A stretch of DNA of 64,000 bases, taken from positions 5,704,001 through 5,768,000 of the forward strand of contig OX442314.1 of the NCBI GenBank assembly GCA_949358305.1, given 5' to 3'. A model generated the notes under the pieces. That model saw only the letters and a list, made by a program, of their open reading frames with translations. It did not search any database and had not been told where the DNA came from. The stretch is from Strigamia acuminata (taxonomy: Eukaryota). The translations under genes and the position numbers were made by a program. Positions 8,626 through 48,862 of the stretch are shown here, in pieces (positions within the stretch are counted from its first letter, which is position 1; every line of letters begins with the position of its first letter).

Positions 8626-8627
8626 CG

Positions 8628-8645
8628 TGGGGGTCTGTCCGGGAT
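8628..8645 (+). promoter_or_regulatory. Element A primer-binding site, tRNA-Pro-like
   Basis: TGGGGGTCTGTCCGGGAT, 2 nt after the LTR; close to the tRNA-Pro PBS TGGGGGCTCGTCCGGGAT. Confidence 0.8.
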
Positions 8646-8719
8646 TTAGAAATAAATCTCAAATCTGAACTTGTGATCTCTCAATAAGATAACCCAAATC
8701 GTAGAATTACCGAAAGAAA

Positions 8720-11700: not shown

Positions 11701-11860
11701 TAACATCAAATGTTACAGCTGTGGAGAATACGGCCACTACTCAGATAAATGTGAGAAAACCGTCAAAGAAAAGGACATCATGCAAACCATGATGAAAATG
11801 ATGATGGAGTTAAGAACTGATCTGGCAAAAAACTTCCAAGCGCAGGCGTCGCCGAAATAA
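8720..11860 (+). CDS. gag: Element A Gag (1046 aa; long coiled-coil N-terminal extension, capsid-like domain, CCHC knuckle)
   Basis: GSAREWYQGL..WDDFLVRFDLRYG retrotransposon-gag motif; CYSCGEYGHYSDKC. Confidence 0.92.
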   Translation: MSDKDEQSTSETEQRMPEKGKRTSDYHLRSDGPVPEMSAKAKARANKRRAKAQKEEQAASLAALDGPERERVPLNMQPFEDTDPEAIENREEIRDVSPGRVSILMTEETNEAPKITVTVGTNPSPPTAQTSVEQTPRKNDGGTPITPRVTASPAVVSFEVSHLIRLTRQAAQLKAMIDIPVGTSVWESITLLTDAICAAQAPTPVARPAAETPMPQVTPSDTGGFAPDPNRALHQSREKAREEARQEATNRQRRLSAERRELWKEEEEREQRERRTTERTEKLVQKMREEREAKIRKEWNATVEGRHREAQEYEDQFQALVAQRKAEKLQMLREEAILQHQKWEEQHRERLREEEARKEKEQFLKEKEEWDRVRWTEEYKAKKQAIIDEQKRWEAENWEKETEKFQKEYEQGVSGRKKREENPKRKSEPPSGSDTDTGEDAAKPAKTAKRGKSQKRDGSVPKTKDRHPSKRSETGAAIDALLEKKNANKNRERPESEENRWHSFYENNDGGEPPPSGGSKQKKAGGETPPRGPRFHPQGDPSEPSDSSDDDHPSRPSTGRSQEDSDGHRSNRPNASDRSSRSSNPRSEEGNFQDSSDRHYTMSELGRALLNSFRREGIDLGHPGDEHNRAGERVKRKYGVRNEPSSEATGNIRWQHYIQTRFDGSWKAGDRFLDEVMRIKKATKATVADMLTHGLVELTTGSAREWYQGLKNPTWDDFLVRFDLRYGETPDEISNKLRGLRQAPGETLADYDARAKLLFARAPYEINPAGFTMIFYGGLSAHSQRILLDMRAPRTGDYQDVSNYLLTNTLEIEQRYYATLPPEEADAHEKRLQTSAERHKTSEKLMRPSEYLSGIMSLTEASFGRMLTPKAGSILPANPIAAPKKAPAATAMQVTSTDSTQMEKVEETTPLATAKEEEPASSDEEALNEHLENLSTGCDDQGPYLHHAHRALAITQFRAHVQATKARGALGGKRRFPTPFVPKKPGFTPTGDKSNIKCYSCGEYGHYSDKCEKTVKEKDIMQTMMKMMMELRTDLAKNFQAQASPK

Positions 11861-11878
11861 ATTCAGCTTCGTCTGCGC
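11827..11878 (+). promoter_or_regulatory. -1 ribosomal frameshift signal of element A
   Basis: In-frame A_AAA_AAC (11827-11833), 6-nt spacer, stem GCGCAGGCG/CGTCTGCGC; pol is in the -1 frame and open from the slip site. Confidence 0.85.
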
Positions 11879-15963: not shown

Positions 15964-16342
15964 AAATAAAAGAAAATGTGATAACATGGAGCGGAGGCCT
16001 TGTAAAATAAAAGATTTACTTACGAGAGCTGCTGCACATGTTGAAACGCGAAAATTTGGCTAAGTCCAAACTTCGCAACGAATTGTCGCAGTCACCACTA
16101 ACAGACGAGAAGTTATGACGTATCGGGCGACCACGTGACAATGAAACCACGCGGTCGACCCCGTAGCGTCATTGCCAGCACGGCGGATCTCGCAAAATAC
16201 GAGACGCGTTCGAGACCCACAATTCTCAGCGTCGATAGGCCCAGTTTCCGACTGTTTTTAACACGACGAGACGTGTTTTTGCTTCTCCCCCAAAGAGAAA
16301 GACAAAGACCTCTCAAACAAAACTTCATTTTCCTAAATTGAA

Positions 16343-16459
16343 ATGGCCGATCGACGCAACCCACGATTAGAGCCGAGCGCATCGTCGAGAGACGAGAGCG
16401 ACGGCCTAATCGTAAATGCAGAAGACGATGAGAATTGGGACGAACAACCGCCGTTGCAG
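16343..16459 (+). CDS. Element A ORF3, predicted exon 1 (39 aa, ...DDENWDEQPPLQ)
   Basis: ATG at 16343; donor CAG|GTAAAT in phase 0; DENWD motif shared with exon 1 of element B. Confidence 0.7.
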
Positions 16460-17019
16460 GTAAATTAGTGTGATTTCCCCAGAGAAATCACATAATTCTT
16501 TGAATCTGTTGCATCCAACCCAGATTGGAGCGTGACTTGTGACTGATATATTTCTTTCTGTTTTATTATTGATTTAAGGCTGGCTAAAAACCCGAGAGTG
16601 GACCCAGATTCACCTCGGAGTCAAGGCCGCCAAAAAACTAGAACAAAGGAAGTGTTCGCGGAATGGCGTCGTGGCAAACCAAAACCAAAACTAAAGGTTT
16701 TCTTTCTTTTAAAATTAAACATCGTAATAAATTAAAATACGATTAGAGTTAAAATAAAAAGTTTAACGTAATATTAAGAATTTAACGATCGGTTTTGCCT
16801 GCGACCCCTTCCTAAAAAGCGGATCACCTGAGTTCAAAGGTAGTGTTGGATCAGCGCTACGACGGCGGAGATCATCGCAGAACTGCGAAACAAGAAAATA
16901 AGACCGACGGCCGCAACAAAAGAAAGGAGTTGCTGCCACCGTCGATCTTGAGCATATTTCTGATCCCCATCGTTAAACTGGGATTTATTATATTAATCTT
17001 GTGATCTAAAATTATTCAG

Positions 17020-19806: not shown

Positions 19807-19841
19807 GAAAATTGAGATCGCTCCGATCCGAGATCGAAGCT

Positions 19842-19851
19842 GGAGGAGGGA
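19842..19851 (+). promoter_or_regulatory. Element A polypurine tract
   Basis: GGAGGAGGGA just before the 3' LTR. Confidence 0.85.
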
Positions 19852-19853
19852 CG

Positions 19854-20673
19854 TGTGGTGACCCAGTTGGATAAGTGTCCCCCCAGGGCGGATACTTGTC
19901 CTATGAGTCACTATGATTAAAGAGTCGTTCCCCCCCGAGTTGGCTCCACCTCCCCATGGCAGGTGTGTGCCCCGAGGGGGAGGAAGCGGCTGGTGGTCAG
20001 CCCCCATTGGTTGATCGCCGGCCCTTCACCCCACTGCATAAAAGGCTGTGTTTCCCGCCTAAAGACAGAACTTACACAAACGACACCAAGAACACAGCAA
20101 CTACCTCACCGTCAGGCCAACTTCAACTACAAGTTAGGATTGATCGAGGATCGCTGAGTAAAGTGCAAACTGTAACTCTCACGAAGTCACTTGCGAGCTA
20201 TTCCTGCGAAAGCACGAGAATAGCCCTTGTGAAATCACCCAGAATAATCGCCCAGACGATTATTCGCCGAAGTAAGTGTCCGAGTGCTTTGTAGGGAACC
20301 CCAAAGTTCCTAGACGAGGCCTCTGCGACGCTAAACAAACCCTAGACAACAGGCACGGATAGAAGACTCGAAAGAGCATTCCACCGCGTCCGTGAAGACG
20401 AATCCGTGACGAATTAACGACAACTCGAGACGCCGCCTTTGTTCCGCCGACCACGCGGAATCGACGACGCCATCTTGAGAAATCCTTTGTTCGACGCTGA
20501 CCACGTCGACTCTAGAATTATTACTGAGTGTATTTTAAAGGCATAAAGCCTGGTGAATAAATTACCTGTTTATTTACATACATTTGGTATTCATTTGGGT
20601 ATTTACATAATTGATCACAGGTAAAGTATTACACGTTAGCGCTATTTAAACCTATACCAAGTAGGACGCGACA
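19854..20673 (+). repeat. Element A 3' LTR
   Basis: Direct repeat of 7806-8625 at offset 12048. Confidence 0.97.
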
Positions 20674-25912: not shown

Positions 25913-26908
25913 TGTGGTGACCCGACTGGGGTGGGGCACGAAGAGTTTCTCTCGTGGCCTACATACGGGTAAAGAAGGGGAGTCGCACGCGCGCCTCCCT
26001 TCCCTCAGAGCATTGACATCCAGTCAATGGACGGGCGTCTGCCCTGGGGGAGTGGGGGAGATTCGTCTTCTCCACTATTGGGTGGCTTTAGTCACCTGTC
26101 ACCCCCCGCTTTGTGCAAAGGAATTCGCCTTGCACTGAGCGGGCAGAACCAACACAAAAATCAACCAAGATACACGTAAAAGCCAAACGTCCTAAAACGA
26201 TCAAGCCTAAGTACAAAGACTTCAGGAGTGACCTAGGACAAGGGACTTTCAACGTGAGTACGATTGATTTGTGTTAACCTCCGCAGAGTAACCTGCGAAA
26301 CAAGATTACCACACTATTTTAGCAAGCCAGCTAGAAATAGTAAACCTACTCCAATTTAGCGAGTTGTGCAGACAAACGGTCGCACAAGCCTAAATTGCAG
26401 TAACCACGACGAGCGTTCCCGCCGCTGTGTGTATCGCCGGGAACCACCAAGCGTCCGCCGCTGTGTGATCGCCGGACACCTACAAAAAACCCTAAACCTA
26501 GACAACAGACCAGAAGTAAGACCTTTCAGGCATTCACTCGCGCCCGACCAGCGTGAGCCCGAAGGACCGAACGAGAAACGTGAGACGAGGACGCCATTCA
26601 TTGCCACGCCGGCCCAAGACGACACCACGTTGCCACGCGGACGCCATCTTGGATCCACAGCGACAAAGGACGACCTCGACCAGTTTCCCGCCAACTTCAC
26701 ACCCCTTTCCTTTTACCTTTTTATTCCCTTACATATTTTATTCCCTTTTAACTGTATATTCCCGTATAATAAATACATTTATTATATTTACCTTTTACAT
26801 TGTCTTGCCGTGTTACATTATTTGGGTAACCGCTTGAGTAAAGCGGTATTGCGAGATCAGAGAGTGACTCATACCACGTATCAGCGACAGACCGAGTTGA
26901 GCGCGACA
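25913..26908 (+). repeat. Element B 5' LTR
   Basis: TGTGGTGACCC...GCGCGACA; repeated at offset 21954. Confidence 0.97.
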
Positions 26909-26910
26909 CG

Positions 26911-26976: not shown

Positions 26977-29937
26977 ATGGCAGACAATATCCGAGTAACG
27001 GATTCCGACTCCGACGCGAACAAGAGAGCCGGCAGTCGTAAAGGCGCCGACTATCACTTGCGATCTGGAGGTCCCTTACCCAAAGCCTCAGCGCACGAAG
27101 CGAGGCAAAAACGGCGCAAGCCTAAACCCGATCGCAGAAGCGCATCAGAGGCATCGCACCCGTCTCGTTCCGAGACGAGGCAGCGATTGGACGAGACAGA
27201 GCGGGGTGAAGAGCAATCTCACTCCAAACTGCCGCGTTCTAACCGTGACGGCGAGACGAGCGGAAACGAGGTTTTATCCCGTAACCCATCGCCTCGTCTA
27301 ACGCACGACACCGAGGTGGGCAGTCCGAAAGCGGCGTCTCCGATACAAAAGACGGCCTCAAACACGACAGCTAATTCGGCACTAAACACGCCAATTACGC
27401 AAAGCCGCCCAGCTTCGGTCAGGTCCGAAGGACACAAGTCCAATGCGTCAAAAACTGAGCGTGTTCCGAGCCAGCCTTACAGCGTCTCGGCCACATTGGT
27501 TGACACGATGCAGTTGGCACAGGCAGAAGGTGTACGATACACTCTGCCAACGGGAAAAATAACTGTGTACGAAACATTACAAATCGTACGTGCAGCTTTA
27601 AGAGCGCACAGGTTATCCCCGGAAATCACCGTTGTTGAAGGCGCATACGCTCAACAAATGGTAGACTCCGCTCAATTCGAAGCGGATGCCGAGAATGAGG
27701 CCCGACAAGCCATCCGCGAGAGAAAGCGGAAGCTGGCGGAAAGAGAAGCGCGAGCTCTCGAGTACGGCAAATCCCAGCGCGTTCCGACTACTCCAGAAGA
27801 AGTCGAAATAGTTGATCGAGCCTTACGTGCACATCGTTATGCATTCCGTTCTCAACAAGAAGCTGAACAAGCTTTCATGACTAGGCTGCAACGAGACAAA
27901 CCAAAATCCGTTAGCAAGCCAGAAGTTAGCTCGTCCGAATTGTCCGACGAGAGCGTCGAAGGCGACCCGAAGCGCACGCCGAAGGTCAGCCCCAAACCCG
28001 AGCGAAAAAAGGAAGTGCCAGTCACTCCACGCAAACGGGAAGTCTCGACCGAACAACGCGTTCGACCTCGCATGATGGCGTTAGACGATAACACTAACAA
28101 CGCTATCAACCGATTAATAAATGCGAACAACGCGCGTCGTAACGAAGAACAGACTCACACGAGCCGACAACGCGACGACCCGCGGGGTAGCGACTGGCCA
28201 CAGCCGGTGCCCATCCTCAAAGACGACGGACCTTCGAGAAAACATTCCGAAGACCGCACATCGTCACGAGAGGAACGTCAACGCGAAAGAGGACAGCAAC
28301 AGTATCACTACGGAAACAGTGATTCGTCGTCGGATGAACTGGAGTCGAATGCACCCAGTCATCACGATTCGGAGAGAGGTTCCGGAGAAAGACGAAGGGA
28401 AAGAGAACGCGATGAACGCAGGGAAAGGGAACGTGACGACCGTCGTAGGGGCCGGAAAGAGTCAAACTCTTCACGGCGCAACCCGCCACGCCGCTCACCG
28501 TCTCCCGACCCCAGCTCCGACCCCTCGTCCAACGACGACAGACGAAATGATAAGTCAAGTAATCGCCGGAAGAGATCCAACTCTCCGCGCGATAGAGAGA
28601 AACGACGTCGATCGGAAAATAGCGACCACCGACGGGAGGAGTTTCAGGACCTTCCCCGACAAAGCGCGTTTACCGATTCGACGGGTCGGCAGTATACGAT
28701 GGGAGAGCTTGGAAGAGCCCTGCTTGGCTCGTTAAAAGCCGAAGGAATCGATCTGAGCAAACGAAATGATCGTAATCGTAACACTGGTGACCGCGTAAAG
28801 AAAAAATACGCTGTCTCCCGACGTGACACCATGAGTGTTACCGGGAATATTAGGTGGCAATTTTATATTCAGAACCGTTTCGACGGGTCATGGAAAGCGG
28901 GAGATCGCTTCCTTGACGAAGTAATTCGGATTAAGACTGCCACTAAAGCCACCGTAGGAGACATGCTCACCCACGGTATTGTCGAGCTAATGACAGGCTC
29001 GGCACGTGAGTGGTACCAAGGATTGAAAGGCGTCAATTGGGACGACTTTTTAATGAGATTCGACCTGCGCTACGGCGAGACACCCGAAGAGGTGAGCCGA
29101 AAGATGCGAGGTCTTCGCCAGATGCCTGGTGAAACCATAATGGATTACGACATTCGCGCCAGATTGTTGTTCGAAAAGGCCCCGATGGAATTTCATGCCA
29201 CGGGATTCAACCTTTTCTTTCTCGGCGGTTTGTCGGAATACTCGCAACGGGTGCTACTTGAAGAAAGGGCACCGACAGGAGGCAGCTACAAAGAAATGAG
29301 CGCCTTCCTGTTCGAGAACACGATAGATATCGAGAAGAGATATTATTCCGCTTTACCAGAAGCGGAGAAAGCAGCAACCGCTAAACGTCTCAAGTTGAGT
29401 GCGGAAAGATATGGGGCGACAGACAAAATCATGCGCCCTACTGAATATCTTAGCGGTATAATGGAGCTGGCAGAAGCTAGCGTTGGTTTACAAATAAAAA
29501 ATAAACTGACATCCACGCTGCCTTCCAACCCATTGGCCGCCCCTAAAAAGGCACCGACAGCGTCAGCCATGCAAGCGACACTGGAGGAGGTCAAGGAGGG
29601 GGAGGAAGCCGAACAAAATGTCGGAAAATCAGACGAAAAAGAAGAAAAAGACGATTATTCGACGGACGAAGAAATACGAAGCTATCGCGATACCTTATCA
29701 ACGGGTTGCGATGAGGAAGGACCGCTAGTACATCTCATCCATCGAGATAGAGCGGTAGAAGAATTTCGCGCCAGGTTAAAACCAAATGCCGGCCGAATTC
29801 CGAAGTATTTTCGAAAAAATTACACGCCACCGTCGAAAGTAGACCCTGAAAAAAAGAAATCGATTGAAGCCCCAAGAGACAAATCAAATATTCGTTGTTT
29901 TAAGTGTAACCAACCGGGTCACTATTCCAATGAGTGC
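26977..29937 (+). CDS. gag: Element B Gag, 5' part (to the end of the CCHC knuckle), interrupted
   Basis: ATG at 26977; capsid region highly similar to A Gag; CFKCNQPGHYSNEC ends at the TSD. Confidence 0.92.
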
Positions 29938-31851
29938 TATGACGGTTTACAATGGCTATAAATGCCTATTTTCTATCAAGAAAGCGCTGTTGCGCCAATA
30001 TGATGGTATTTTTACAATATTCTGTGTAAAACTGATAAATGTCTAGAATAAAGTCATTTATGATGTTTCAAATACAAAGATGTTCGTTTATTAAGAATAA
30101 ACACTAATTTCCACATGATACTAAAGTATCACGGCATAATTACGAAGATTCGTCTGCTAAAACCCGCATTTGTCAATGCTCCATATTGCCACTAGATGGC
30201 GCGATCGCAATTAGCGATAAATTCGAATACGAACTTGAAAACCTCATGATTAAATATAAACGTATATTTAATCAAGTGAATAAATTGTGTTAAATATTAA
30301 TATAAATATATATTAAATATCTGACATTGTTAAATACAATGTAACTTCCATTTCTGCGGGACAGAATGTTTAGCGATCAATCGGTCAACCGATCAATCTG
30401 ATTGGTGGAACCCATTTCCGGTCCTGGGTATCCAGTTCCGGTTGTAACAAGGATTAGCATAATTTGCATAAATGCTCCTCCGTATCCACTTCCGGTGATA
30501 CGGGATTGGAGGGATTCGTGGAACCCATGTTCCAATTGGATGACTGGATTAATCCTTAAATCCAGTCAGGTTATATAAACCCAAACAATCGGCCATTCCG
30601 CAGCTCTGTTTGATTATTTTCTGTTTGGTATTGTTACTTATGAAATATGATTCGTTGTTCACGTAAAAAACCTTTTGGTTCTTTGTTGATTTATTCGCAA
30701 AGAACCGTTGCATGATTCTACAGAATCATGCCACCGCCGGCAATTGAAGTCGAAGTGCTGGGATTATTATGTTGCATAAATGTTACAGTCTACGGTTGCG
30801 ACGCCGAAGGAGAACCCGCCGTTGTGCAATTCAGTATCCTCCGGACAGGACCAAGTTGTCTTTTTCGGTATGAACGTATTCCGTTACCACGAGTAGCATC
30901 GGTATTGTTGAGAATCGGTTCCTTCACCTGATGGTGCCAAAGCAGTCTGTTTTACAGTAACCACGAGTAGCACCAAGTGTTTGGCAAGCTGATTCTCATG
31001 GTATTCGATGCCAAAGCAGTCGGTCTATTATTAGTACCGCGAGAGATAAAACTGCTGTGCGGAGCCGCGAGCTATCGACCCCTGTGTACGTGGTACCGTC
31101 AACCACTCGATGGACGACCGTGCTGCGACGCCGGGGACGCTTGATACCGTTCTGCATGGCAAGGCGTATATTCTAATCGATGGCAATTGTGTGTTGCGAC
31201 GGGAAGCTTAATCTTCATTTTATTTATAACAGCAAAACTTAAACTCGACAACCAGTTGGACCAAAATCAAGTCAGAAGACTTAATCTCATATTGAACTCA
31301 ATATAACCGATAAGTTGACGACAACTTATTCCCGAAATATCTAAATAAGAATTCACAACGATATGAATTAAATATAATTCATAAGTGGAATATTGATAAG
31401 TAAATGAATACATTTACTTACACCAATATCCTCCCAAAGTTGTGGCGGTGCAGACAAAGTCAACCGCAATGCTCAGATCATTCGATTTATCGACGTGCGA
31501 TAGTTCACACAGCGAACCAAGGAAACCAGCGAAGCCGTATCGGACTCCAGGACACAGCCATCCGGCTTAAGATGACATCTATAATCAGGTCGAGCGATGG
31601 GGAAACCGCTCCCATATTCCAGACCCGTAGTGATATTATTCTAGGGCCAGTTGGCCAATTCTTTGTATAGTTTAATAGCTGATTTAACTTGCCAAATGTC
31701 GGCATTAGTCCTATGTATAATTTAGCCTTGATATTATTGTTTACCAACAATAAACTGTCTTGTATTTATCTCGTATTGTATTCACTGTTTATTTATTGCG
31801 ATCTCTTCCCGGTACCATTGTTAAATGGGAGTTGTGGTCGTCACTCTCACA
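29938..31851 (+). repeat. Element C 5' LTR
   Basis: Starts TATGACGG; TATATAAA at 30572; AATAAA ~31749; repeated at offset 7519. Confidence 0.95.
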
Positions 31852-31853
31852 CG

Positions 31854-35137: not shown

Positions 35138-35379
35138 GCATCCAGACCAGACCAGAAGACGTGTTCCAGAGTCATCTTGACCACGCCGTCCCGATTTCAG
35201 TCACGATTCGAATTTTGTGTGCCGTGTAACCTGCAAAAGCTAACACGTGTCAAACAAACGCGAAGTTTAATTTTATTTTGTCAAAAGTAAAGTTTAGAAG
35301 TGTTTCTTGTTGAAAAGTGTATTATATTCGTCTTCTTTATAAATTAAAGAATTAAAATCGTCAGATTTTGAATTTTTTT

Positions 35380-39374: not shown

Positions 39375-39494
39375 CCAAGAACAGCGAAAGAAGACGCTAA
39401 GTTTGACGCGATAATGAAGCAGATGGCAGAGATTAAACTCGCCATGGCAAAAAACGAGTCAAAAAACGAGTCAGCGCAGGCGGCGAAGAAATAA
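39375..39494 (+). CDS. gag: Element B Gag C-terminal remainder
   Basis: PRTAKEDAKFDAIMKQMAEIKLAMAKNESKNESAQAAKK* rejoins in frame when C plus one TSD is removed, and aligns with the A Gag tail. Confidence 0.9.
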   Translation, partial: PRTAKEDAKFDAIMKQMAEIKLAMAKNESKNESAQAAKK

Positions 39495-39512
39495 CTTCTC
39501 GACCGTCTGCGC
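39449..39512 (+). promoter_or_regulatory. -1 frameshift signal of element B
   Basis: Two in-frame A_AAA_AAC heptamers (39449, 39461), 6-nt spacer, stem GCGCAGGCGG/CCGTCTGCGC. Confidence 0.85.
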
Positions 39513-42500
39513 CATTCATGAAGAAGAAGGGGCTTAACAAAGGGTTCGATAAACCGCCACCAGTCAAAGAAATGGGTAGTGACATAGCTAACGCCCAGAT
39601 CCAAGACAGGGCCAACAACGCTTTGCAGGTAATTACCGCAAACGCTGAGGCTGAGGCGGAAGAACCAAACCTACTGCTTGAAGAATTACCTCAAGTAGTC
39701 GAAGACACAGAAGAATTTCGTGTTTTCATGTGCAACGTGGCGGTCGAATATACCAGCCGCCTATGTATGCTGCCCATGACAATAGAACGCGAAAAAATTA
39801 TGGGACTGCTAGACTCGGGAGCAGATCGCTCGTTCGTTTCCGAAGACATAGTAGCATCATTGGGTCTCACCGATAAGATAAAAGGCGTTAATAAAAATGT
39901 ACGTCTAAAAACCGCCAACGGAATGGCGCGTCCAAAAGGAGTTATATTATTGACCATGGAGTGGCTCGGAGGGGTAGAACAGCACCCTTTCCTGGTCCTG
40001 CCCACGTGCGACAGAATTTTTCTGTTGGGCTTAGACCTCATGGCGTCAATGGAAATACAACCAAATCCAATAACGAAATCTTGGAATTATATCAGAAATG
40101 ATAGAGAAAGACCCGCAATTGTCGTGCCACCAGCTCTTATCAAAGAAGCGGCCGACAAGACACAGTGGGAGAAAGGCCTAAAGAAATTCGTTCAAGACTA
40201 CAATTTTAAAGCATTCGTAGCAGAATTGCAACGGGACAATGTAGTGGAAACGCTTGTCGCCGACGCCGCTTTAGAATTAAACGAAGCGGCAGCCCTACGA
40301 AGGGTCCTACTTAAATATGAGGGGATCCTGTCGAAAAAACCGGGCCGAACGAATAGGGCTATTCACGAAATTAAATTGACGGATAATAAACCTATACGAG
40401 TTGCGTATAAGGGAATGAACCCGCAAAAACGTGAAATAGTACAAAAAATGTGCCAAGAAATGCTAGACAGTGGCATTGTCTCCGAGGCCCAGGGAGAATA
40501 CGCGACGCGAGTTGTGCTCGTGATGCGCCCGGGCTCGGACCCACGCCTATGCATTGATTACCGCCCATTAAACGCGGTGACAGAGATAGATCCCATACAG
40601 ATGCCGTCTATCGAATCCATTTTGAGAGAGCTTAGCCCCTTTTCTTGGGTTACGACGATGGATCTGTCGAAGGGATACTGGCAAGTTGAGATGAGGCCAG
40701 AGGATAAGCTAAAAACAGCATTTTACTCGCCAATTGGACGGTTGATGTTCAACGTCATGCCGTTTGGTTTAGTGAATGCTCCCAGTACCTTTCAGAGACT
40801 AATCGAAAGCGTATTGGGTGATATCCTGCATCAGTTCGTGTGGGCATACCTAGATGACATAGTTATTGCCTCTAAAACATTCGAAGAGCACATTGAGCAC
40901 ATCGAACAAGTGCTCACCCGGCTGGCGAAAGCTGGGTTACACGTTCATCCGGGCAAGAGCAAGTTCTGTCGAAAGGAGCTTGCCTTCCTGGGTTATCGCA
41001 TTGGAGTCAACGGTTTAGCTATTGGCCCCGAAAAAATCGATGCGATTAATCGTTTCCCACCACCCGAGGACGTTAAAGGTGTCCAACGGTTTATGGGAAT
41101 GATAAACTTCTTCGGCAGGTTGCTACCGGGTCTAGCTGAAGTGGCAGCCCCAGTTACCGACCTCCTGAAGAATGAAAACGAATTTGTATGGTCAAATGAG
41201 TGCACCATCGCATTTAATGCGATAAAGAGGATGCTGACGGAAGTCGGCGTAATGCCTCTACCCGACTTAAACCGGCCGTTCATATTACATACGGACGCCA
41301 GCAGAGTTGGGTTAGGAGCGGCGTTGCTCCAAACACACGTGCGCGACGGAGTCGAACAAGACCTGCCGTGCATGTTTATAAGTCGCAAACTCCAAGGCGC
41401 TGAAAAAAATTACAACGCCACAGAGTTGGAGTGTTTGGCAGTTGTGTGGGCTATAAGGAAATTCAGAGATTATCTCGAATATACCAAATTTGTAGTCCAC
41501 ACAGATCATCAAGCGTTACAATGGCTGATGAAATTAAAGGAGCCAGCCGGTCGACTAGCCAGATGGCAGTTAGAACTGATGGCATGTGACTTGACCATTC
41601 AATACAAGCCCGGCAAATATAACGTCGTGGCTGACGCTCTATCAAGGGCACCAGTGTCAGATCCTATCGACGCTGACGATGATGGCGAGGATGATTCCCG
41701 CATCATTTACTGCCCGACGAGTTGTCACCGTTGGGATTTAAGGAAGATAAATGAAATTCCCACCGCGTCTCCAGCAGATGTAAAATTCTGTGGATTCTGG
41801 ACGCGGTTATACCAACCAGCTGCTGACAATCACCCAAATGCAAAGAAGGAATTTAAGCTAGAGCGGAGAATAAATGACCCGCTTCTAAGCGCCTTCCACG
41901 CTCATGTCGGCAGGCAAATGCGAAGCAATCCCCCGACAAGGGAGGAAATAATTGTGCAACAAAAATTAGACAAAAAATGTCAGGACAGAGCTAGATTCGT
42001 ACTGACAGGAAAATATCCGCCCAACTTAACCAGAAGGCAGAAGCGTCGTTATGCACACGAATCCATAGATTACCTATTGGATGACGGCCTTTTGGTGAAA
42101 CATCACCCAAATCACCAAGATGACTTGAGTGAATCGGACACCGCAGTAAAGGTAGTAATACCTGCTTCCTTAATCGGTCGCGTGCTGTGGTTGTTACACG
42201 GGCACCCGCTTGCGAGCCATGCGGGAGTAAGCAGAACACTCTATCGTGCTACACAGCTTTTTCACTGGACAGGGATGAAAAAAGATATTGCTCTTTTTGT
42301 CCACCAATGTCAGCGATGTCAAGCGTGCAAGCCGAGGAGTAAATCACCATTCGAAACTATTTTCTTAGGGCCTTACGCGCCTTTTGATTGTTTAAGTGTC
42401 GATGTGATGGGCCCAAAACCCGTTACGGGAAATAAAAATGCGTACATTATCGTTATAATGGACGTGGCGACTCGTTGGCCCGAGTTGTACGCCGTCGCTA

Positions 42501-43588
42501 GACCTTCAGCAGAAAAAATCGTTAAATGTATCTACGACGTGGCGTTACGTTACGGATTTCCACGTAAAATGATATCCGACAACGGACCCCAATTTATCTC
42601 GAAAATTTGGGGTAAGTTTTGTGAGAAATTCGGGATTGTGGCGTCACATACTTCGACCTACAATCCCAGAACAAATCCCGTTGAGCGACTCAACAGGGAC
42701 ATTAAATATGCACTAAGTATATTCACTGACATCCACAATAAGTGGGATGAATACTTGAGGGAGATCGCGTTCAGCATACGAACAACAGTCTCGAGGACGA
42801 GAGATTTTTCTCCGGCCTACCTCAACTTCGCCCGGGAGCTACGAGTGCCTTGGGACCCACGAGTGGCAGAGTCAGTAAATGTGGTGGACCCCGAGAAACC
42901 ACATGAGTACGTGTATAAATTGGAGCAAACCATCTCCAACACGTACAAGCACATGATGGCGCACATTTTTAACATGCGCGACCGCATTTTACAAGATAAA
43001 AGCGGTGGAAAATTCGTGAATTTCGAGATTAATGATTTAGTGTGGAAGGACACACACATCCTCTCAAATGCAGCGAGAGGAATCACCGCCAGCTTGGCCG
43101 ACAAAAGAGACGGTCCGTATGTGATCATCGGCAAGCATGGCGGTAACGCGTATAAATTACGTAAGCTCGAGGACAATACCGAGCACAAATCGATCCAGGT
43201 ACGAGAGTTAACTCCGTACATTCCGGAATTCCCGCAAGAAATGTGGGCCAAGGGCCAAGTCAAGTCAAAAACTGACGGCCAAATCGTCGATATGTTCGCT
43301 GGCGAGTCGGAAAAAGCACCGCCAAGTGACAACGAGGAGTATTTCGACGCCCCTTCACCACCGGTAAACGAGATAGTTGAATCCGTTCCGGATCCAATTT
43401 TGGTCGGGGGGGAAACAGGAGAAACTCCTGAAACAAACACAAAAAACACGGATAAAAAAGAAAACAGTAATGAGGAGGTACAGACACAAAAAACAACAAA
43501 AAATATCGTACCTGTCTCGACTCATCACCTGCGGCTTCGTAGAAGTAATCCGTTTATAAAAGACGGAAAGGTCGTAGGAAAGGAGTAG
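39467..43588 (+). CDS. pol: Element B Pol (PR-RT-RH-IN), intact frame
   Basis: LLDSGAD, YLDD, TDAS, HHCC, DDE and GPY motifs; strong similarity to A Pol. Confidence 0.97.
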   Translation, partial: RVSAGGEEITSRPSAPFMKKKGLNKGFDKPPPVKEMGSDIANAQIQDRANNALQVITANAEAEAEEPNLLLEELPQVVEDTEEFRVFMCNVAVEYTSRLCMLPMTIEREKIMGLLDSGADRSFVSEDIVASLGLTDKIKGVNKNVRLKTANGMARPKGVILLTMEWLGGVEQHPFLVLPTCDRIFLLGLDLMASMEIQPNPITKSWNYIRNDRERPAIVVPPALIKEAADKTQWEKGLKKFVQDYNFKAFVAELQRDNVVETLVADAALELNEAAALRRVLLKYEGILSKKPGRTNRAIHEIKLTDNKPIRVAYKGMNPQKREIVQKMCQEMLDSGIVSEAQGEYATRVVLVMRPGSDPRLCIDYRPLNAVTEIDPIQMPSIESILRELSPFSWVTTMDLSKGYWQVEMRPEDKLKTAFYSPIGRLMFNVMPFGLVNAPSTFQRLIESVLGDILHQFVWAYLDDIVIASKTFEEHIEHIEQVLTRLAKAGLHVHPGKSKFCRKELAFLGYRIGVNGLAIGPEKIDAINRFPPPEDVKGVQRFMGMINFFGRLLPGLAEVAAPVTDLLKNENEFVWSNECTIAFNAIKRMLTEVGVMPLPDLNRPFILHTDASRVGLGAALLQTHVRDGVEQDLPCMFISRKLQGAEKNYNATELECLAVVWAIRKFRDYLEYTKFVVHTDHQALQWLMKLKEPAGRLARWQLELMACDLTIQYKPGKYNVVADALSRAPVSDPIDADDDGEDDSRIIYCPTSCHRWDLRKINEIPTASPADVKFCGFWTRLYQPAADNHPNAKKEFKLERRINDPLLSAFHAHVGRQMRSNPPTREEIIVQQKLDKKCQDRARFVLTGKYPPNLTRRQKRRYAHESIDYLLDDGLLVKHHPNHQDDLSESDTAVKVVIPASLIGRVLWLLHGHPLASHAGVSRTLYRATQLFHWTGMKKDIALFVHQCQRCQACKPRSKSPFETIFLGPYAPFDCLSVDVMGPKPVTGNKNAYIIVIMDVATRWPELYAVARPSAEKIVKCIYDVALRYGFPRKMISDNGPQFISKIWGKFCEKFGIVASHTSTYNPRTNPVERLNRDIKYALSIFTDIHNKWDEYLREIAFSIRTTVSRTRDFSPAYLNFARELRVPWDPRVAESVNVVDPEKPHEYVYKLEQTISNTYKHMMAHIFNMRDRILQDKSGGKFVNFEINDLVWKDTHILSNAARGITASLADKRDGPYVIIGKHGGNAYKLRKLEDNTEHKSIQVRELTPYIPEFPQEMWAKGQVKSKTDGQIVDMFAGESEKAPPSDNEEYFDAPSPPVNEIVESVPDPILVGGETGETPETNTKNTDKKENSNEEVQTQKTTKNIVPVSTHHLRLRRSNPFIKDGKVVGKE

Positions 43589-44068
43589 AAAACGTTACGA
43601 GTCGATGGCGACGCTGAAAAACAAAAAAATTGACCGATCGACAGCGCTAGCCATCAAAATCCGAGACTCTGAAAATTTCGCTAAGTCCAACAAAGCGGAT
43701 ATCGGTCGAATTCACGTCACGAGATGGCGTGGAAACGCGGGACCCGTAGCAAAATTATCGGCATGGGTCGGATACCGCGTGCAAAAGACCCCGTAGCAGC
43801 GATCGCGCACGGGCGTAGAAACAAAGGAGCCCCGTAGCGTAACATGCGCACGGGCTGTTGCGCACAGTCATAAGCACCTGGTTCTGGAGTAAAATTACCC
43901 AGAACCCACCACGATTGCCTCGTTTTCACCCGGACTTCCGCTAAAATCAGCTGATCGTCGTCCGCACGTGATACACAGCGAGTGCATTTTTAACCGAGTT
44001 TTTGATCCATTTTACGAGAAGTTTTCAAGTTTTTTAATCGTGGTCTGACTGAACGCGCAATCCTCACG

Positions 44069-44161
44069 ATGGATGAGGAAGGAGGGGACGAGGAAATGCT
44101 TGAAATACAGCATCATGACGAGAATTGGGACCCGGACATAAACGTAGTTCCACCCGATCAG
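44069..44161 (+). CDS. Element B ORF3, predicted exon 1 (31 aa, ...HDENWDPDINVVPPDQ)
   Basis: ATG at 44069; donor CAG|GTAGTA in phase 0; DENWD shared with A. Confidence 0.7.
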
Positions 44162-44962
44162 GTAGTAGTCGGCATCGCCGCACGAGATTTAGCTCCGTGC
44201 GGTCGAATTAAAGATACACTTGACTAATACTTGACATGAACGCTCTGCGTTCGAAATCGTGTATAATTATTATACTAATATCCACGATCGCGAGAGCGAT
44301 TGTATTTTCTCCTATTATTTGTCTTCAAGGACGCGATAGCAGACAAACTGTCGCCTCGCTCCTTGAAGATGACTCACGACAATTGACACGAACGAGACAA
44401 AGGAAACGAGCTTTCTTTTTATATTCCAGAAATGGGAATAATTTATTGGATGGATTTTGAAAGAATTTATAGAACGTTGTTTCTATTTTTATTTGCTATT
44501 TTATTTGCGAATTTTTTCCCGATGACACTAATTTATTATAGATTCGTTTTTTAACTCGACTTTAACTCCGAATTTTTGGAGTTATTATTAGACAAATTTA
44601 TTTCTTTACAAGTTAATTCACGACAAGAACATTTGTTTACATGTTCTAAAATTGTTATTGGAGATTTTCACGAACGATTTCGCGAATTTATTGGTTTAAA
44701 TACAAATTTACAGTTTAATTTTAAATTAAGCAATCCGAAGAAAAATTTCCGGATTAATACGCTCGATTCCGTCTCGTGGTTATCATTGGACGTGAACCAG
44801 ATGTGCCAAGAAGACTCTTTTCTTCCTGACAAGGACGAATCAATGAACAGGAATAGGACTCGACGAGCGGTCGCACGTTTCAGCGACGTTCCTCGAGCCC
44901 ACCCCCTATTTATCTCCGTGTTATTGGCGATTTCATTAATTATTTTGTTTCCATCATTGCAG

Positions 44963-47827
44963 ATGGAGCTCCGAGACACATGGGGAGCGCTCAGCCCCGC
45001 ATGCATAGTGCGAGCGGGCATATATCGAGGCGTACTGCCCGATTTTCTGCGCCGCTGCTTTGGCGAAGATGCGAAGCCATACCGCCTGCGCGTATTATTT
45101 TCGCGCGCCCTCGCCAAGCGTTGGGTTAACGATTGTACACTCCTGGACGCGTTCCCGGAGTCGGTGCGAAACGTCGTCGCTGCAGAGCTCGCTCGCATCG
45201 ATGACCCGAAGTCACCAATCTTCCACCCGGCCCTGTCGAGCCAATACTCCGGCAGGCCGGCGGAGGAGCATGTGTTGTTCGCGTGGCAAGCGGCCGAGAC
45301 CGAGGAGGCCCGCGAAGAAGTGTATCAACACTACCGCCAGCAGCTAATCGACACTGCGCCGGCGGTTGCAGAGCGGATTTTGCAAGACGACGGAATGAGC
45401 ACCGCCGATATACATCTGTGGTGCGAGCAGATTCGGCAGGGAGAAGTTACGCCACAGTGGCGACCGAGAATGGGGATTCTCACGTCACAAGCTGAAATGT
45501 GGCAACTCCACTATTTGGGAATTCTCGGCCCCAAATATAATTTCCCAAGGAAGCGCAAGCGCTCCAAGGGAACCGGGGGCAGCGAATCGCGCTCCCCGGG
45601 ACGGTCGAAGAAACAGTGCGTCGAACAGCACTCGACCGTCAACGATGGAGCGGGAACGTCAGCGCAGCCACCGCGCGACCCCGCGAATTACACCAGACCA
45701 AGGGTGTTCGTCAACCGTCAGATGAAAGACGGTAAAGAGACTCGAGAAGTCTGGATTTCGGGTGACGAAGAGCGAGTCTCTCGTCCCCGTGTCGGCAGAC
45801 ATCCGCTAACTCATCGTGAGCAGCGGAAACGAGACCGCAAAGAGCGGTATTTCGCTCGCTGCGAGGCGCGAGGAATTCCCCTTCCCGAACACGCTCTCAA
45901 AGCAATCGAAGCGAAGGAAGCGAGAGAGGCACGATCGAAGTCGAGTGGCCGATCTTCCGGGGAGCGTCGCGTCCTAGCGCCAGACACGCGGGACCTTCGC
46001 GAGATCATCACCCAGATGAAACGCAAGAAATTGTCTCGTTTCGACCCCGCGATGCAGTTCGCTCGCAAGATGGGCGTCGTCGAGCATGGTACCGTGATTC
46101 CACACGAAGTGGCACGGTGGTTAAGCGAATATGTCAATTCGCGACCGCGTGTAGAAAACGCGCCTACGGCCGTCGTTCCACCGACGAGTACTGTAAGCCA
46201 GCTCCCGGCACTCCAAGTCACGCCGACTGGAGTGCAAGCGACGCTGCCACCGCCAACACAACAGTCTTTGACGTTGCTGTTGCCGACGCAGTCATCAACG
46301 TCGCAACCGTTGCCAGCACAGCAGTCCCTGACGCTGCCGCCGCCGACACAGCCGCTGCCGCCGCCGACGCAGCCCCCGCCGCCGCCGCCGATGCCGGGTT
46401 CGAGTACTACGCCGAACTTGGCCGTCGACGACTCGGTGATGTTGCCCGTTCACCAGAGCATTGCGCGGGAATGCCATAACGCCCGCTTCGGAGAATATTA
46501 CCCGAGCAAGGCAAGACACGACCGCACCGCGATGTGGTATGAACAGCGTGACGAAAACGCACGGCTGGCTCGAGAAGCAGCCAATCCGTCGATCGAAGAG
46601 CTCTTGGCCTTCGCATTTGTGATGGAGGACCCGAGGGCCGCCGCCGCTGCTCTGCAGGGCGCCGACGTCACTCAGCGCCATTTCATCGAGTGGGGGATTT
46701 CGATGATGCGGCACCACTCGCGCGCGTTCGCTGCAGATCCTGATCGCAGCAACCCTGTAAATCGGCGCAGTCTACAGCTGGCTTTGACGAAAATCATGGT
46801 CCAGTTATTGACCCCCTCGCTCTTTGGGGTCGGACGACAAGCGATGGCCTGTTGGTCCGTAGTCGACAGAGAGGGTGTGCAGATACCTCGCGCACTCGTT
46901 GGGGAATGGAGCGCCATTCTCCCCAACCCGGCGATGACTCGCTTCGAGCTGACCCGGGACGTGGTGAACCCCGAATGGGAGGGGTATAAGTTGCGGAGCA
47001 TGGCCTTCCGCCACGCCGTTACCACGTGGGAGCCAACACCGTCAGCGCAGTCACACGCAATGATGGTCACGAGTGAAGAGCCGATGGAGAGCGACGCCGC
47101 CTCTTCGACTGCTTCACGTGGAGCCCCAACTCCACCTCCGCCGCCGCCACCGATGCCACCAGCGGCGACACCACAGACACCCGTCCTATCAAATGCGGCG
47201 GGTAAGCCCAGACGCTTGTTATGTCGGACGCCACCAACGATGTCCGCCGCTCGCCAGAGCCTGACGCCTCCCGCAGCCCAACAAGCGCGGGAAGAGACTG
47301 TCCAACAAGCGGTAGTTCCGAAGAGCGCCAAGCCAGCGAAAGCGGCGAAGCTTCAGACGAACTATTATGAGAAGTTGTGTGACGAGTTCTCTCAGCTGTC
47401 GATGACGACGGCGACGCGCAAATTCATCCTCGCGCAGAGAGACAAGGGGAAATCGGTATTCGTTTGGCTACACAACCAGGTGCGCCAGACCACCGATTTG
47501 ATCCTCCATCAGCGTTTGCTGAGGGCCCACCGTGCGCCTCGAACGGCCGCGGAGGCGAACGCGATCCGGCACACCAATTCCGGGTTTTCGGCGTTCATTC
47601 CGCGGGTTTGGCTGCATGAGAGGAGACGTGCCCCGTACGAGCCAGCCGGCGGCCACGCATTGTGCTTCATTTCCGAGCACGAGGACCCCCGCGACCAGTC
47701 TTCAGCCTTGGTTGGAGATCTGGTTTTGCCGCCCGGCGTTGTGCCGCCCGGCGCTGAGCCGCCCGTCCCTGGAGTGAGTTTCGCCCAGGCGATGGATCCA
47801 GCGTCGGGTCCCAGCAAGAAGGATTGA
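44963..47827 (+). CDS. Element B ORF3, main exon; uncharacterised non-Env protein (~985 aa spliced)
   Basis: Acceptor TTTCCATCATTGCAG|ATG at 44962; homology to A ORF3 begins exactly here. Confidence 0.8.
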   Translation: MELRDTWGALSPACIVRAGIYRGVLPDFLRRCFGEDAKPYRLRVLFSRALAKRWVNDCTLLDAFPESVRNVVAAELARIDDPKSPIFHPALSSQYSGRPAEEHVLFAWQAAETEEAREEVYQHYRQQLIDTAPAVAERILQDDGMSTADIHLWCEQIRQGEVTPQWRPRMGILTSQAEMWQLHYLGILGPKYNFPRKRKRSKGTGGSESRSPGRSKKQCVEQHSTVNDGAGTSAQPPRDPANYTRPRVFVNRQMKDGKETREVWISGDEERVSRPRVGRHPLTHREQRKRDRKERYFARCEARGIPLPEHALKAIEAKEAREARSKSSGRSSGERRVLAPDTRDLREIITQMKRKKLSRFDPAMQFARKMGVVEHGTVIPHEVARWLSEYVNSRPRVENAPTAVVPPTSTVSQLPALQVTPTGVQATLPPPTQQSLTLLLPTQSSTSQPLPAQQSLTLPPPTQPLPPPTQPPPPPPMPGSSTTPNLAVDDSVMLPVHQSIARECHNARFGEYYPSKARHDRTAMWYEQRDENARLAREAANPSIEELLAFAFVMEDPRAAAAALQGADVTQRHFIEWGISMMRHHSRAFAADPDRSNPVNRRSLQLALTKIMVQLLTPSLFGVGRQAMACWSVVDREGVQIPRALVGEWSAILPNPAMTRFELTRDVVNPEWEGYKLRSMAFRHAVTTWEPTPSAQSHAMMVTSEEPMESDAASSTASRGAPTPPPPPPPMPPAATPQTPVLSNAAGKPRRLLCRTPPTMSAARQSLTPPAAQQAREETVQQAVVPKSAKPAKAAKLQTNYYEKLCDEFSQLSMTTATRKFILAQRDKGKSVFVWLHNQVRQTTDLILHQRLLRAHRAPRTAAEANAIRHTNSGFSAFIPRVWLHERRRAPYEPAGGHALCFISEHEDPRDQSSALVGDLVLPPGVVPPGAEPPVPGVSFAQAMDPASGPSKKD

Positions 47828-47866: not shown

Positions 47867-48862
47867 TGTGGTGACCCGACTGGGGTGGGGCACGAAGAGT
47901 TTCTCTCGTGGCCTACATACGGGTAAAGAAGGGGAGTCGCACGCGCGCCTCCCTTCCCTCAGAGCATTGACATCCAGTCAATGGACGGGCGTCTGCCCTG
48001 GGGGAGTGGGGGAGATTCGTCTTCTCCACTATTGGGTGGCTTTAGTCACCTGTCACCCCCCGCTTTGTGCAAAGGAATTCGCCTTGCACTGAGCGGGCAG
48101 AACCAACACAAAAATCAACCAAGATACACGTAAAAGCCAAACGTCCTAAAACGATCAAGCCTAAGTACAAAGACTTCAGGAGTGACCTAGGACAAGGGAC
48201 TTTCAACGTGAGTACGATTGATTTGTGTTAACCTCCGCAGAGTAACCTGCGAAACAAGATTACCACACTATTTTAGCAAGCCAGCTAGAAATAGTAAACC
48301 TACTCCAATTTAGCGAGTTGTGCAGACAAACGGTCGCACAAGCCTAAATTGCAGTAACCACGACGAGCGTTCCCGCCGCTGTGTGTATCGCCGGGAACCA
48401 CCAAGCGTCCGCCGCTGTGTGATCGCCGGACACCTACAAAAAACCCTAAACCTAGACAACAGACCAGAAGTAAGACCTTTCAGGCATTCACTCGCGCCCG
48501 ACCAGCGTGAGCCCGAAGGACCGAACGAGAAACGTGAGACGAGGACGCCATTCATTGCCACGCCGGCCCAAGACGACACCACGTTGCCACGCGGACGCCA
48601 TCTTGGATCCACAGCGACAAAGGACGACCTCGACCAGTTTCCCGCCAACTTCACACCCCTTTCCTTTTACCTTTTTATTCCCTTACATATTTTATTCCCT
48701 TTTAACTGTATATTCCCGTATAATAAATACATTTATTATATTTACCTTTTACATTGTCTTGCCGTGTTACATTATTTGGGTAACCGCTTGAGTAAAGCGG
48801 TATTGCGAGATCAGAGAGTGACTCATACCACGTATCAGCGACAGACCGAGTTGAGCGCGACA
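47867..48862 (+). repeat. Element B 3' LTR
   Basis: Preceded by PPT GGGAGGGGGA (47855-47864). Confidence 0.97.

What the first reader, a model, noticed from the sequence alone, without database searches (positions are those of the whole stretch)
44963..47827. Large non-Env accessory protein family in the env position
Seen: A and B ORF3 share ordered conserved blocks separated by variable Pro/Arg/Ser-rich linkers. Examples: SEMWQLYHAGILG/AEMWQLHYLGILG; WYAQREMDARCRREAAYP/WYEQRDENARLAREAANP; QAMAAWTIVDREGVHLPRAL/QAMACWSVVDREGVQIPRAL; HRRILRAHR/HQRLLRAHR; RIWIHER..EPAGSH/RVWLHER..EPAGGH. I see no signal peptide, TM anchor or Cys/glycosylation pattern of an envelope protein; basic NLS-like clusters are present. 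Inference: about three small folded domains under purifying selection in a possibly nuclear regulator (transactivator, RNA export factor or anti-silencing factor). I do not recognise the family.
Basis: partly seen in the sequence, partly recalled or inferred. Interest (0 to 1): 0.8.

Follow-up and report, generated by a model that had tools for sequence, protein, structure and literature searches.

The report
Large orphan regulator in Gypsy retrotransposons
Two recently inserted Gypsy-type jumping genes of an animal carry, where an envelope gene would sit, a large conserved gene of no named family, which likely makes a nuclear protein that would control the element's own activity through short inverted-repeat sites kept just upstream of it.

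Summary
Elements A (7806-20673) and B (25913-48862) are Ty3/Gypsy retrotransposons with identical LTR pairs in an animal genome. Each has a third ORF of about 930-950 codons after pol. The two proteins share three blocks (29%, 44%, 39% identical; z 41-63 over shuffles) joined by unalignable linkers, with synonymous sites near saturation. There is no conserved Cys and no transmembrane segment in the body, and no Pfam, PDB or fold match: it is not a recognisable Env. One remote relative was found: an uncharacterised centipede protein matching the middle domain (E 6e-4), which folds as a helical bundle. New here: the conserved part begins at a shared CAG, 44 codons before A's first ATG, so the gene is likely spliced. 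An acidic mini-ORF ending in CAG|GT, an inverted-repeat motif (3 copies in B, 1 in A, none elsewhere in the window) and an in-frame hydrophobic stretch lie upstream in both. Best reading: a nuclear self-regulator acting on those sites, DNA-level (0.35) or Rev/CERV-like (0.25). Expression, splicing, location and function are untested. Orphan ORF3s are a known kind; this family and its cis-module were not found in print.

The parts
44963..47827 (+). Element B ORF3 body, 954 codons, starting right after a CAG acceptor-like site (44960-44962)
44963..45550 (+). B domain 1 (29% identical to A; predicted helical, low confidence)
46511..47032 (+). B domain 2 (44% identical to A; predicted helical bundle; remote match to P0108)
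47351..47722 (+). B domain 3 (39% identical to A; four His shared with A)
44555..44962 (+). In-frame open stretch of 136 codons upstream of B ORF3, ending in a hydrophobic 19-mer (about 44903-44959); also the 3' part of the candidate intron
   Evidence: stop-free in 2 of 5000 local shuffles
44069..44161 (+). B acidic mini-ORF (31 codons, D-E-N-W-D motif) ending at CAG|GT; candidate first coding exon
43744..43853 (+). Three copies of the inverted-repeat motif CCGTAGC-N9-10-GCAYGG (43744-43766, 43791-43812, 43832-43853)
43680..43690 (+). 11-nt word shared with A at nearly the same distance from the pol stop (92 against 96 nt)
39437..43588 (+). B pol (protease, RT, RNase H, integrase)
26977..29941 (+). 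B gag (Retrotrans_gag, CCHC), interrupted near its 3' end by element C
25913..26908 (+). B 5' LTR, 996 nt, identical to the 3' LTR; 4-bp target duplication
47867..48862 (+). B 3' LTR, preceded by a polypurine tract
17020..19806 (+). Element A ORF3 body, 928 codons after the homologous CAG (17017-17019); first ATG at 17152; domains 17020-17595, 18511-19032, 19360-19719
16930..17004 (+). A in-frame hydrophobic stretch closed by a stop codon
   Evidence: 0 of 2000 local shuffles as hydrophobic
16343..16459 (+). A acidic mini-ORF (39 codons, D-E-N-W-D motif) ending at CAG|GTAAAT, the best donor-like site of the spacer
16161..16183 (+). A copy of the inverted-repeat motif
7806..20673 (+). Element A as a whole: LTRs 7806-8625 and 19854-20673 (identical), gag 8720-11860, pol 11821-15963

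Best explanation
ORF3 is a conserved accessory gene of a Ty3/Gypsy lineage, not a recognisable envelope gene, and it likely encodes a nuclear protein that would switch on, or keep on, its own element by acting at the inverted-repeat sites kept between pol and ORF3. Shown: the gene, its three conserved domains, purifying selection, the shared start of homology at a CAG, and the co-conserved spacer motifs. Inferred: a spliced mRNA in which the short acidic mini-ORF is the first coding exon (one intron of 560 nt in A, 801 nt in B, both in phase 0); nuclear import by the basic clusters; the acidic, Trp-bearing N-terminal peptide as an activation-type motif; binding as a dimer to the near-palindromic site on DNA (fixed arms, free spacer of 9-10 bp). 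This is the logic of foamy-virus Tas or plant VANC, without shared ancestry.
For: Domains far above shuffles, second codon positions best kept, fourfold sites near saturation. A's first 44 codons before its first ATG are conserved (0 of 10000 shuffles as high), and the CAG lies 7 codons before the same Trp in both elements, so A needs a splice or other non-ATG entry. The spacer holds a colinear chain of 8 shared DNA words (0 of 1000 local shuffles; 0 of 1000 block-order shuffles, best 16.3 against 17.0). The motif occurs 4 times in 64 kb, all 155-265 nt after a pol stop. Its arms are invariant and its spacer free, with no compensatory change in 6 pairs, and in A the hairpin does not form in context (pair probability 0.0): this fits a sequence-read site better than a structure-read one. 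Basic clusters, 50 shared Arg and 11 shared Trp, no shared Cys. Precedents: Tas acts on an internal promoter (PMC8003144, passages); VANC depends on a short motif repeated within its own element (PMC6719617, passages).
Against: No DNA-binding or other known domain was found by sequence or fold. No RNA evidence for expression, splicing or an internal start. No TATA-like box in either spacer. The mini-ORF similarity is weak by itself (55 of 2000 shuffles; not above the six-frame null), and B's donor matches only 6 of 9 consensus positions. The motif was read off the data, so its shuffle expectation is not a fair test; it may bind a host factor or Gag, not ORF3; A has only one copy. Only two family members, from one genome. 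The in-frame hydrophobic stretch upstream is not explained by this reading.
Confidence: 0.35

Rival explanations
1. Rev/CERV-like RNA export factor. ORF3 protein, made from a spliced mRNA, would bind the motif as a bulged-A hairpin on the unspliced genomic RNA and carry that RNA out of the nucleus.
For: All four copies fold alone into the same stem-bulged A-stem hairpin or a near-equivalent register of it; the one change in the stem is G-C to G-U. In B the pairs form in context with probability 0.96-1.0, 0.54-0.57 and 0.37-0.64. The 300 nt after A's pol stop fold better than 99 of 100 shuffles (z -3.8). The sites lie upstream of the mini-ORF, so a message spliced from the 5' LTR would lack them. 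CERV also has three folded domains with flexible linkers, a basic NLS and a spliced mRNA (PMC10309623, section 9).
Against: No compensatory change. The hairpin is out-competed in A's context. B's region is only weakly structured (z -1.6; 7 of 100 shuffles as good). No Rfam match. CERV overlaps gag and is about half as long; the profile search returned no CERV. No donor site is clearly shared by the two 5' regions.
Confidence: 0.25
2. Host-directed accessory factor. The protein would act on host silencing or defence (piRNA/RNAi, chromatin, stress) as a scaffold with three helical interaction domains; the spacer motifs would serve host factors and have nothing to do with ORF3.
For: ORF3 domains change 3-7 times faster than Pol at replacement sites (dN 0.58-0.89 against 0.13-0.18), as in host-conflict genes (inference). 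Domain 2 resembles generic helical-bundle scaffolds only. Two other LTR-type elements in the window carry unrelated orphan ORFs.
Against: No known host-binding motif is shared by A and B (PxVxL only in B). No test links it to a host pathway.
Confidence: 0.22
3. A membrane-anchored form matters. The in-frame basic-then-hydrophobic stretch before domain 1 would be translated, giving a membrane-anchored ORF3 (B) or a separate small membrane protein (A), perhaps for cell-to-cell passage without Env.
For: Hydrophobic 19-mer in the ORF3 frame in both elements (0 of 2000 and 1% of local shuffles), and B's frame open for 136 AT-rich codons (2 of 5000); the 40 codons upstream align without gaps (77 of 5000 shuffles). 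Small membrane proteins replace Env in some insect elements, at times downstream of pol (PMC11952523, passages).
Against: In A a stop separates the stretch from the conserved body and no ATG opens it. T-rich intron ends favour hydrophobic codons. The body has no shared Cys or sequons and is Arg/Pro-rich, unlike an ectodomain. FAST/sORF2 hallmarks (myristoylation motif, basic patch after the TM, 63-107 aa) are not met.
Confidence: 0.13
4. A highly diverged or decayed envelope gene.
For: Position between pol and the 3' LTR; likely spliced expression; a signal-like hydrophobic stretch upstream.
Against: No shared Cys, no shared furin site, no fusion peptide, no C-terminal anchor; predicted all-helical with long disordered linkers; no Env profile match.
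Confidence: 0.03

Closest known systems
CERV of the C. elegans Ty3/Gypsy element Cer1 (PMC10309623; abstract and section 9 read)
   Same: Accessory protein of a Ty3/Gypsy element with no homologue outside its lineage, three predicted folded domains with flexible linkers, a basic NLS; spliced mRNA (shown there, inferred here).
   Different: CERV is 517 aa, shares exons with gag and has a Cys loop and a G-protein-like domain. This ORF is about 950 aa, lies after pol, has no shared Cys, and no sequence link was found. Export function shown there, untested here.
Foamy-virus Tas/Bel1 with its internal promoter (PMC8003144; passages read)
   Same: Accessory gene next to the 3' LTR; proposed nuclear transactivator acting on the element's own sites.
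   Different: Vertebrate retrovirus with env; no sequence or fold link found; internal promoter not shown here.
VANC anti-silencing proteins of Arabidopsis VANDAL transposons (PMC6719617; passages read)
   Same: Transposon-encoded accessory protein; short motif repeated within the element and rare outside it.
   Different: Plant DNA transposon, many motif copies, acts on DNA methylation; here 1-3 copies, animal LTR element, function untested.
Non-env ORF3s of bdelloid rotifer Juno/Vesta elements (PMC5408684; abstract and passages read) and additional ORFs of plant Retand elements (PMC11963269; passages read)
   Same: Family-specific extra ORF between pol and the 3' LTR that is not Env.
   Different: Those are captured enzymes (DEDDy, GDSL), small TM/coiled-coil proteins, or antisense TRP28 ORFs; this one is sense, much larger and matches none of them in Pfam.
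UniRef T1IVY2, uncharacterised protein of the centipede Strigamia maritima (P0108)
   Same: Residues 381-476 match domain 2 over 95 ungapped columns, 27% identity (E 6e-4 in 1.84 billion proteins; hhalign 94%).
   Different: 514 aa; no match to domain 3 and at most a doubtful one to domain 1; genomic context unknown, so it is not shown to belong to a retrotransposon.
sORF2/FAST-like fusogens of MDG1-group elements (PMC11952523; passages read)
   Same: Env-less elements with a small TM-coding frame, sometimes after pol.
   Different: The hydrophobic stretch here has its basic patch before, not after, and no myristoylation motif; the main ORF is ten times longer.

Membership tests
Ty3/Gypsy LTR retrotransposon (host element) | Paired TG...CA LTRs, primer site, polypurine tract, target duplication | tested here: met
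   LTR pairs 100% identical, 4-bp duplications, TGG-type primer site and purine tract in A and B
Ty3/Gypsy LTR retrotransposon (host element) | gag with CCHC, pol order protease-RT-RNase H-integrase | tested here: met
Named Ty3/Gypsy clade (for example Osvaldo, Mag, errantivirus) | RT grouping with named reference elements | tested here: inconclusive
   A and B form their own long branch (support 100) among 102 database proteins, best 48% identical; no named reference elements were on hand
Env (F-type or gB-type) | Conserved cysteines and N-glycosylation sites | tested here: not met
   0 shared Cys; one sequon each at different places
Env (F-type or gB-type) | Furin site followed by a fusion peptide; C-terminal TM anchor | tested here: not met
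   R-x-K/R-R: 0 in B, 4 in A; highest 19-mer hydropathy 1.39 and 1.75, mid-protein, none near the C-terminus
Env (F-type or gB-type) | N-terminal signal peptide | tested here: inconclusive
   None in the body; an in-frame hydrophobic stretch lies just upstream, open in B, closed by a stop in A
Env (F-type or gB-type) | Fusogen fold | tested here: inconclusive
   Domain 2 model is a helical bundle (pLDDT 67.5); domains 1 and 3 have only a low-confidence model
CERV / Rev-like export factors | Made from a spliced mRNA | tested here: inconclusive
   Sequence signs only; no RNA data
CERV / Rev-like export factors | Encoded in the gag region with shared exons (CERV proper) | tested here: not met
   Lies after pol; no similarity to Gag of either element
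CERV / Rev-like export factors | Structured RNA response element on the unspliced RNA | tested here: inconclusive
   Repeated hairpin-capable motif, no covariation, not formed in A's context
CERV / Rev-like export factors | Required for export of genomic RNA; nuclear location | not testable with these tools
   Needs cell assays
Tas-like transactivator / VANC-like anti-silencer (works-like only) | Short motif kept within its own element and rare outside | tested here: met
   4 of 4 window matches lie in the A and B spacers; only 64 kb examined
Tas-like transactivator / VANC-like anti-silencer (works-like only) | Internal promoter upstream of the gene | tested here: inconclusive
   No TATA-like box in either spacer; one Inr-like match in A
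Tas-like transactivator / VANC-like anti-silencer (works-like only) | Sequence-specific DNA binding and activation | not testable with these tools
   Needs binding and reporter assays
sORF2/FAST-like fusogens | 63-107 aa, N-myristoylation motif, TM followed by a basic patch | tested here: not met
   Spacer translations show no such ORF; basic residues precede the hydrophobic stretch
Enzymatic ORF3s (DEDDy, GDSL) and TRP28 ORFs | Pfam match to the captured domain | tested here: not met
   0 Pfam families for 2 of 2 whole ORFs; 1 sub-threshold hit (E 0.16) among 6 domains

The most novel reading that the evidence does not exclude
An invertebrate Ty3/Gypsy lineage has evolved a complex-retrovirus-like autoregulatory circuit of its own: a 950-residue, three-domain protein of a new family, made from a spliced message, that recognises a co-conserved inverted-repeat element behind pol (as DNA, like Tas; or as RNA, like Rev), with an alternative membrane-targeted product read from the same frame. 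The domain 2 match in a centipede would make the family old among arthropod-like hosts.
Probability: 0.3. Interest if true: 0.75.

Novelty: new variant of a known kind. Interest (0 to 1): 0.5.

Why it matters
Animal LTR retrotransposons are mostly treated as simple gag-pol(-env) elements. CERV is the one accessory regulator with a shown job that my searches returned. A second, unrelated regulator that comes with a candidate response element would show that complex-retrovirus logic arose again, and the pair can be tested directly in reporter and binding assays. If the motif proves unrelated, this is one more orphan ORF3, unusual mainly for its size.

Tried and rejected
Searches without a relative: word-indexed protein search with the whole ORF and with a domain 2 alignment, both weak for relatives as distant as A is from B; ESM Atlas, whole and domain 2; Pfam, PHROGs, PDB sequences; viral contigs, metagenome contigs, phages. 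The integrase scan of metagenomes gave 2 distant loci without ORF3. The motif scan of viral contigs gave 120 stretches; none of the 122 loci then held matched ORF3, and only the two earlier ones matched Pol, so the motif hits are taken as chance. The full-length fold was unusable (pLDDT 35.7) and its viral search empty. Domain 2 fold: no Foldseek match at E 0.001 in PDB or BFVD; best VIA Z 8.0, rmsd 3.1, 92 aligned, to a designed four-helix bundle, within background. A Bcl-2-like fold was considered from weak rows (E1B-19K, MCL1, Bak Z 5.5) and not accepted; no fusogen was listed, which does not exclude one. A second-capsid reading was rejected (no similarity to Gag). A weak score between A domain 1 and the ORF at 61820-63349 (z 6.2) looks compositional on inspection. 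No whole genome was held.
Full report
Setting. The window comes from an animal: it holds an exon of a DEG/ENaC channel (Pfam ASC, E 1.6e-13). No whole genome was held. Element A spans 7806-20673 and element B 25913-48862. Each has a 100% identical LTR pair (820 and 996 nt), a 4-bp target duplication, a primer site and a purine tract, and gag and pol with the Ty3/Gypsy domain order. Both are therefore recent insertions. B's gag is interrupted by a third LTR element, C (29938-39370). Pol of A and B is about 63-65% identical. On an RT-RNase H tree they form one long branch (support 100). The tree held 102 of the 107 proteins; 5 with under 380 aligned columns were left out. The best database relative is 48% identical, and the named neighbours in the wider group are mostly insect proteins. 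I could not place them in a named clade.

The observation. After pol each element has a spacer (1056 nt in A, 1374 nt in B) and a long ORF that ends just before the purine tract. The quoted blocks are all present and in order. Three domains stand far above 300 shuffles each (29%, 44%, 39% identity; z 46, 63, 41); the two linkers do not (z 2.5, -0.5). Fourfold sites differ at 22 of 32, 24 of 38 and 10 of 20 positions, close to saturation. Counting estimates give dN/dS of 0.48, 0.21 and 0.49. These are rough, because dS is near its limit and the codons were aligned through the protein. Replacement divergence is 3-7 times that of Pol. So the gene is real and constrained, but fast.

It is not a recognisable Env. 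No Cys is shared. Each protein has one sequon, at different places. B has no furin-type site. The highest 19-residue hydropathy is 1.39 (B) and 1.75 (A), in the middle of domain 2, and there is no C-terminal anchor. Pfam gave 0 families for both whole ORFs and one sub-threshold hit among 6 domains. PHROGs gave only weak hits (E 0.011 or worse). PDB sequences gave nothing.

Relatives. Word-indexed searches found none, but they would often miss a relative as distant as A is from B. The Atlas was blank. Viral, metagenome and phage scans were empty. A full HMMER pass of the domain 2 profile over 1.84 billion proteins gave 1 hit at E 0.001 or better: P0108, E 6e-4, an uncharacterised Strigamia maritima protein. 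It aligns over 95 columns without gaps, 27% identity, hhalign probability 94%, z 13-15 against shuffles, with no signal from the reversed sequence. It lacks domain 3 and its context is unknown.

Fold. The full-length model is poor (pLDDT 35.7, all helix). Domain 2 with three sequences reaches 67.5, with a core of 70-92. Foldseek found nothing at E 0.001 in PDB or BFVD. VIA against 48,161 chains gave a best Z of 8.0 (rmsd 3.1, 92 aligned) to a designed four-helix bundle, with unrelated helical proteins close behind. This shows a helical bundle and no function.

Where the gene starts. A's first in-frame ATG is codon 45, yet the 44 codons before it match B (11 identities; 0 of 10000 shuffles as high). 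In both elements homology starts right after a CAG that lies 7 codons before the same Trp. In A a stop sits five codons upstream, so A needs a splice or another non-ATG entry. Upstream, each spacer has an ATG-opened acidic mini-ORF (39 and 31 codons) with a D-E-N-W-D motif, ending at CAG|GT in phase 0, which fits the phase-0 CAG. In A this is the best donor-like site of the spacer (8 of 9 positions); in B it is only 6 of 9, tied with three others. The peptide likeness is weak by itself (55 of 2000 shuffles; not above the six-frame null). GC-rich and AT-rich blocks alternate in both spacers and further acceptor-like sites exist, so more exons are possible. There is no RNA evidence, so the exon structure stays an inference.

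A complication. In both elements the last codons before the CAG read, in the ORF3 frame only, as a basic stretch and then a hydrophobic 19-mer (A 2.82, 0 of 2000 local shuffles; B 2.46, 1%). B's frame stays open for 136 AT-rich codons (2 of 5000) and has ATGs at 44801 and 44843. A membrane-targeted second product is possible and is not explained by my best reading.

A conserved cis-module. The spacers do not align as a whole, but they keep a colinear chain of 8 DNA words (0 of 1000 local shuffles; 0 of 1000 block-order shuffles, though the best came close, 16.3 against 17.0). One is part of a near-palindrome, CCGTAGC-N9-10-GCAYGG, found 4 times in the window: 3 in B and 1 in A, all 155-265 nt after the pol stop. 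The pattern was drawn from the data, so its chance figure is not a fair test; the shared position is the evidence. Each copy folds alone into a bulged-A hairpin. Of 6 pairs, 5 never vary and 1 changes G-C to G-U; none changes on both sides. In context the hairpin forms in B (pair probabilities 0.37-1.0) but not in A (0.0). No Rfam family matched. Fixed arms with a free spacer of about one helical turn, in tandem copies, suit a DNA site for a dimer (inference); the G-U change and the position suit an RNA element.

Mechanism. I commit to a nuclear self-regulator acting on DNA at these sites (0.35), ahead of a Rev/CERV-like export factor (0.25), a host-directed scaffold (0.22), a membrane-anchored role (0.13) and a decayed Env (0.03). 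Shown: gene, domains, selection, shared CAG, motifs. Inferred: splicing, nuclear location, any link between protein and motif, any function. The likeness of the acidic peptide to activation domains rests on my own knowledge.

Known comparisons. CERV is a spliced, nuclear, three-domain accessory protein needed for genomic RNA export (PMC10309623; abstract and section 9). Tas activates foamy-virus LTR and internal promoters (PMC8003144; passages). VANC acts through a motif repeated in its own element (PMC6719617; passages). Bdelloid elements carry diverse non-env ORF3s (PMC5408684; abstract and passages), plant Retand elements antisense ORFs (PMC11963269; passages), MDG1 elements small fusogens (PMC11952523; passages). 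PMC13524379 (abstract, passages), PMC5408442 and PMC2774666 (passages) gave no description of such an ORF. No supplements were read; Repbase-type consensus sets and supplements may hold related elements. Eight literature searches returned no account of this family; most subscription journals are not covered. The scan's notes held nothing for this sequence or genome, but six notes on unrelated orphan ORF3s in other genomes (unchecked). They lowered my novelty score: orphan third ORFs are common.

Verdict. Real, conserved, non-Env, unnamed; a new variant of a known kind. Its size, the centipede match and the co-conserved cis-module lift it above a plain orphan, but it rests on two copies from one genome and on no functional data. 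Interest 0.5; 0.75 if the protein-motif circuit proves true (probability about 0.3).

Noticed in passing
window 29938-39370 and 50876-60323 (+): Element C, two copies about 98% identical, with 1.9-kb LTRs and 4-bp target duplications. It has no long gag or pol ORF, only one orphan ORF of about 500 codons (35356-36861; second copy 56300-57805, 99% identical) with no Pfam family above threshold, preceded by CCAAT- and TATA-like boxes (35040-35110) that suggest an internal promoter. The first copy sits inside B's gag. Its primer-site region recurs at 32080-32192.
   Followed up: partly
window 61820-63349 (-): A GC-rich orphan ORF of 509 codons with Cys clusters; its ATG also follows a T-rich stretch and CAG, and a purine tract with a TG follows near 61050. 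Possibly the 3' accessory ORF of a fourth LTR family cut off by the window end.
   Followed up: partly
window about 6245-6620 (+): Last exon of a DEG/ENaC (Pfam ASC) channel gene, E 1.6e-13; a further candidate exon near 5700-5805. Marks the host as an animal.
   Followed up: partly
window 8418-8429 and 26640-26651 (LTRs of A and B): The otherwise diverged LTRs share several words, among them a 12-mer that resembles a YY1/Pho site (likeness recalled, not tested) and another 12-mer at 8293/26497.
   Followed up: no
window 8626-8645 and 26909-26928: Primer sites of A and B resemble a tRNA-Pro site, that of C a tRNA-Gln site (both recalled, not tested); each follows a 2-nt CG spacer.
   Followed up: no
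window about 11825 and about 39450: Both gag-pol overlaps hold an A-AAA-AAC slippery heptamer, fitting a -1 frameshift. Gag is unusually long (about 1000 aa) with a disordered Arg/Ser/Glu-rich first half.
   Followed up: no
window 44432-44554 (+): A second hydrophobic 40-codon ORF in B's spacer, in the ORF3 frame; not clearly above chance (5.7% of local shuffles).
   Followed up: partly
window 16120-16162 (+): A strong hairpin (z -3.7) next to A's motif copy, with a similar 10-nt loop; it competes with the motif hairpin.
   Followed up: partly
window 7425-7734, 20754-21063, 21067-21839: Inverted-repeat (MITE-like) elements flank element A; A, B and both C copies all lie on the + strand, in a nested transposon cluster.
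   Followed up: no
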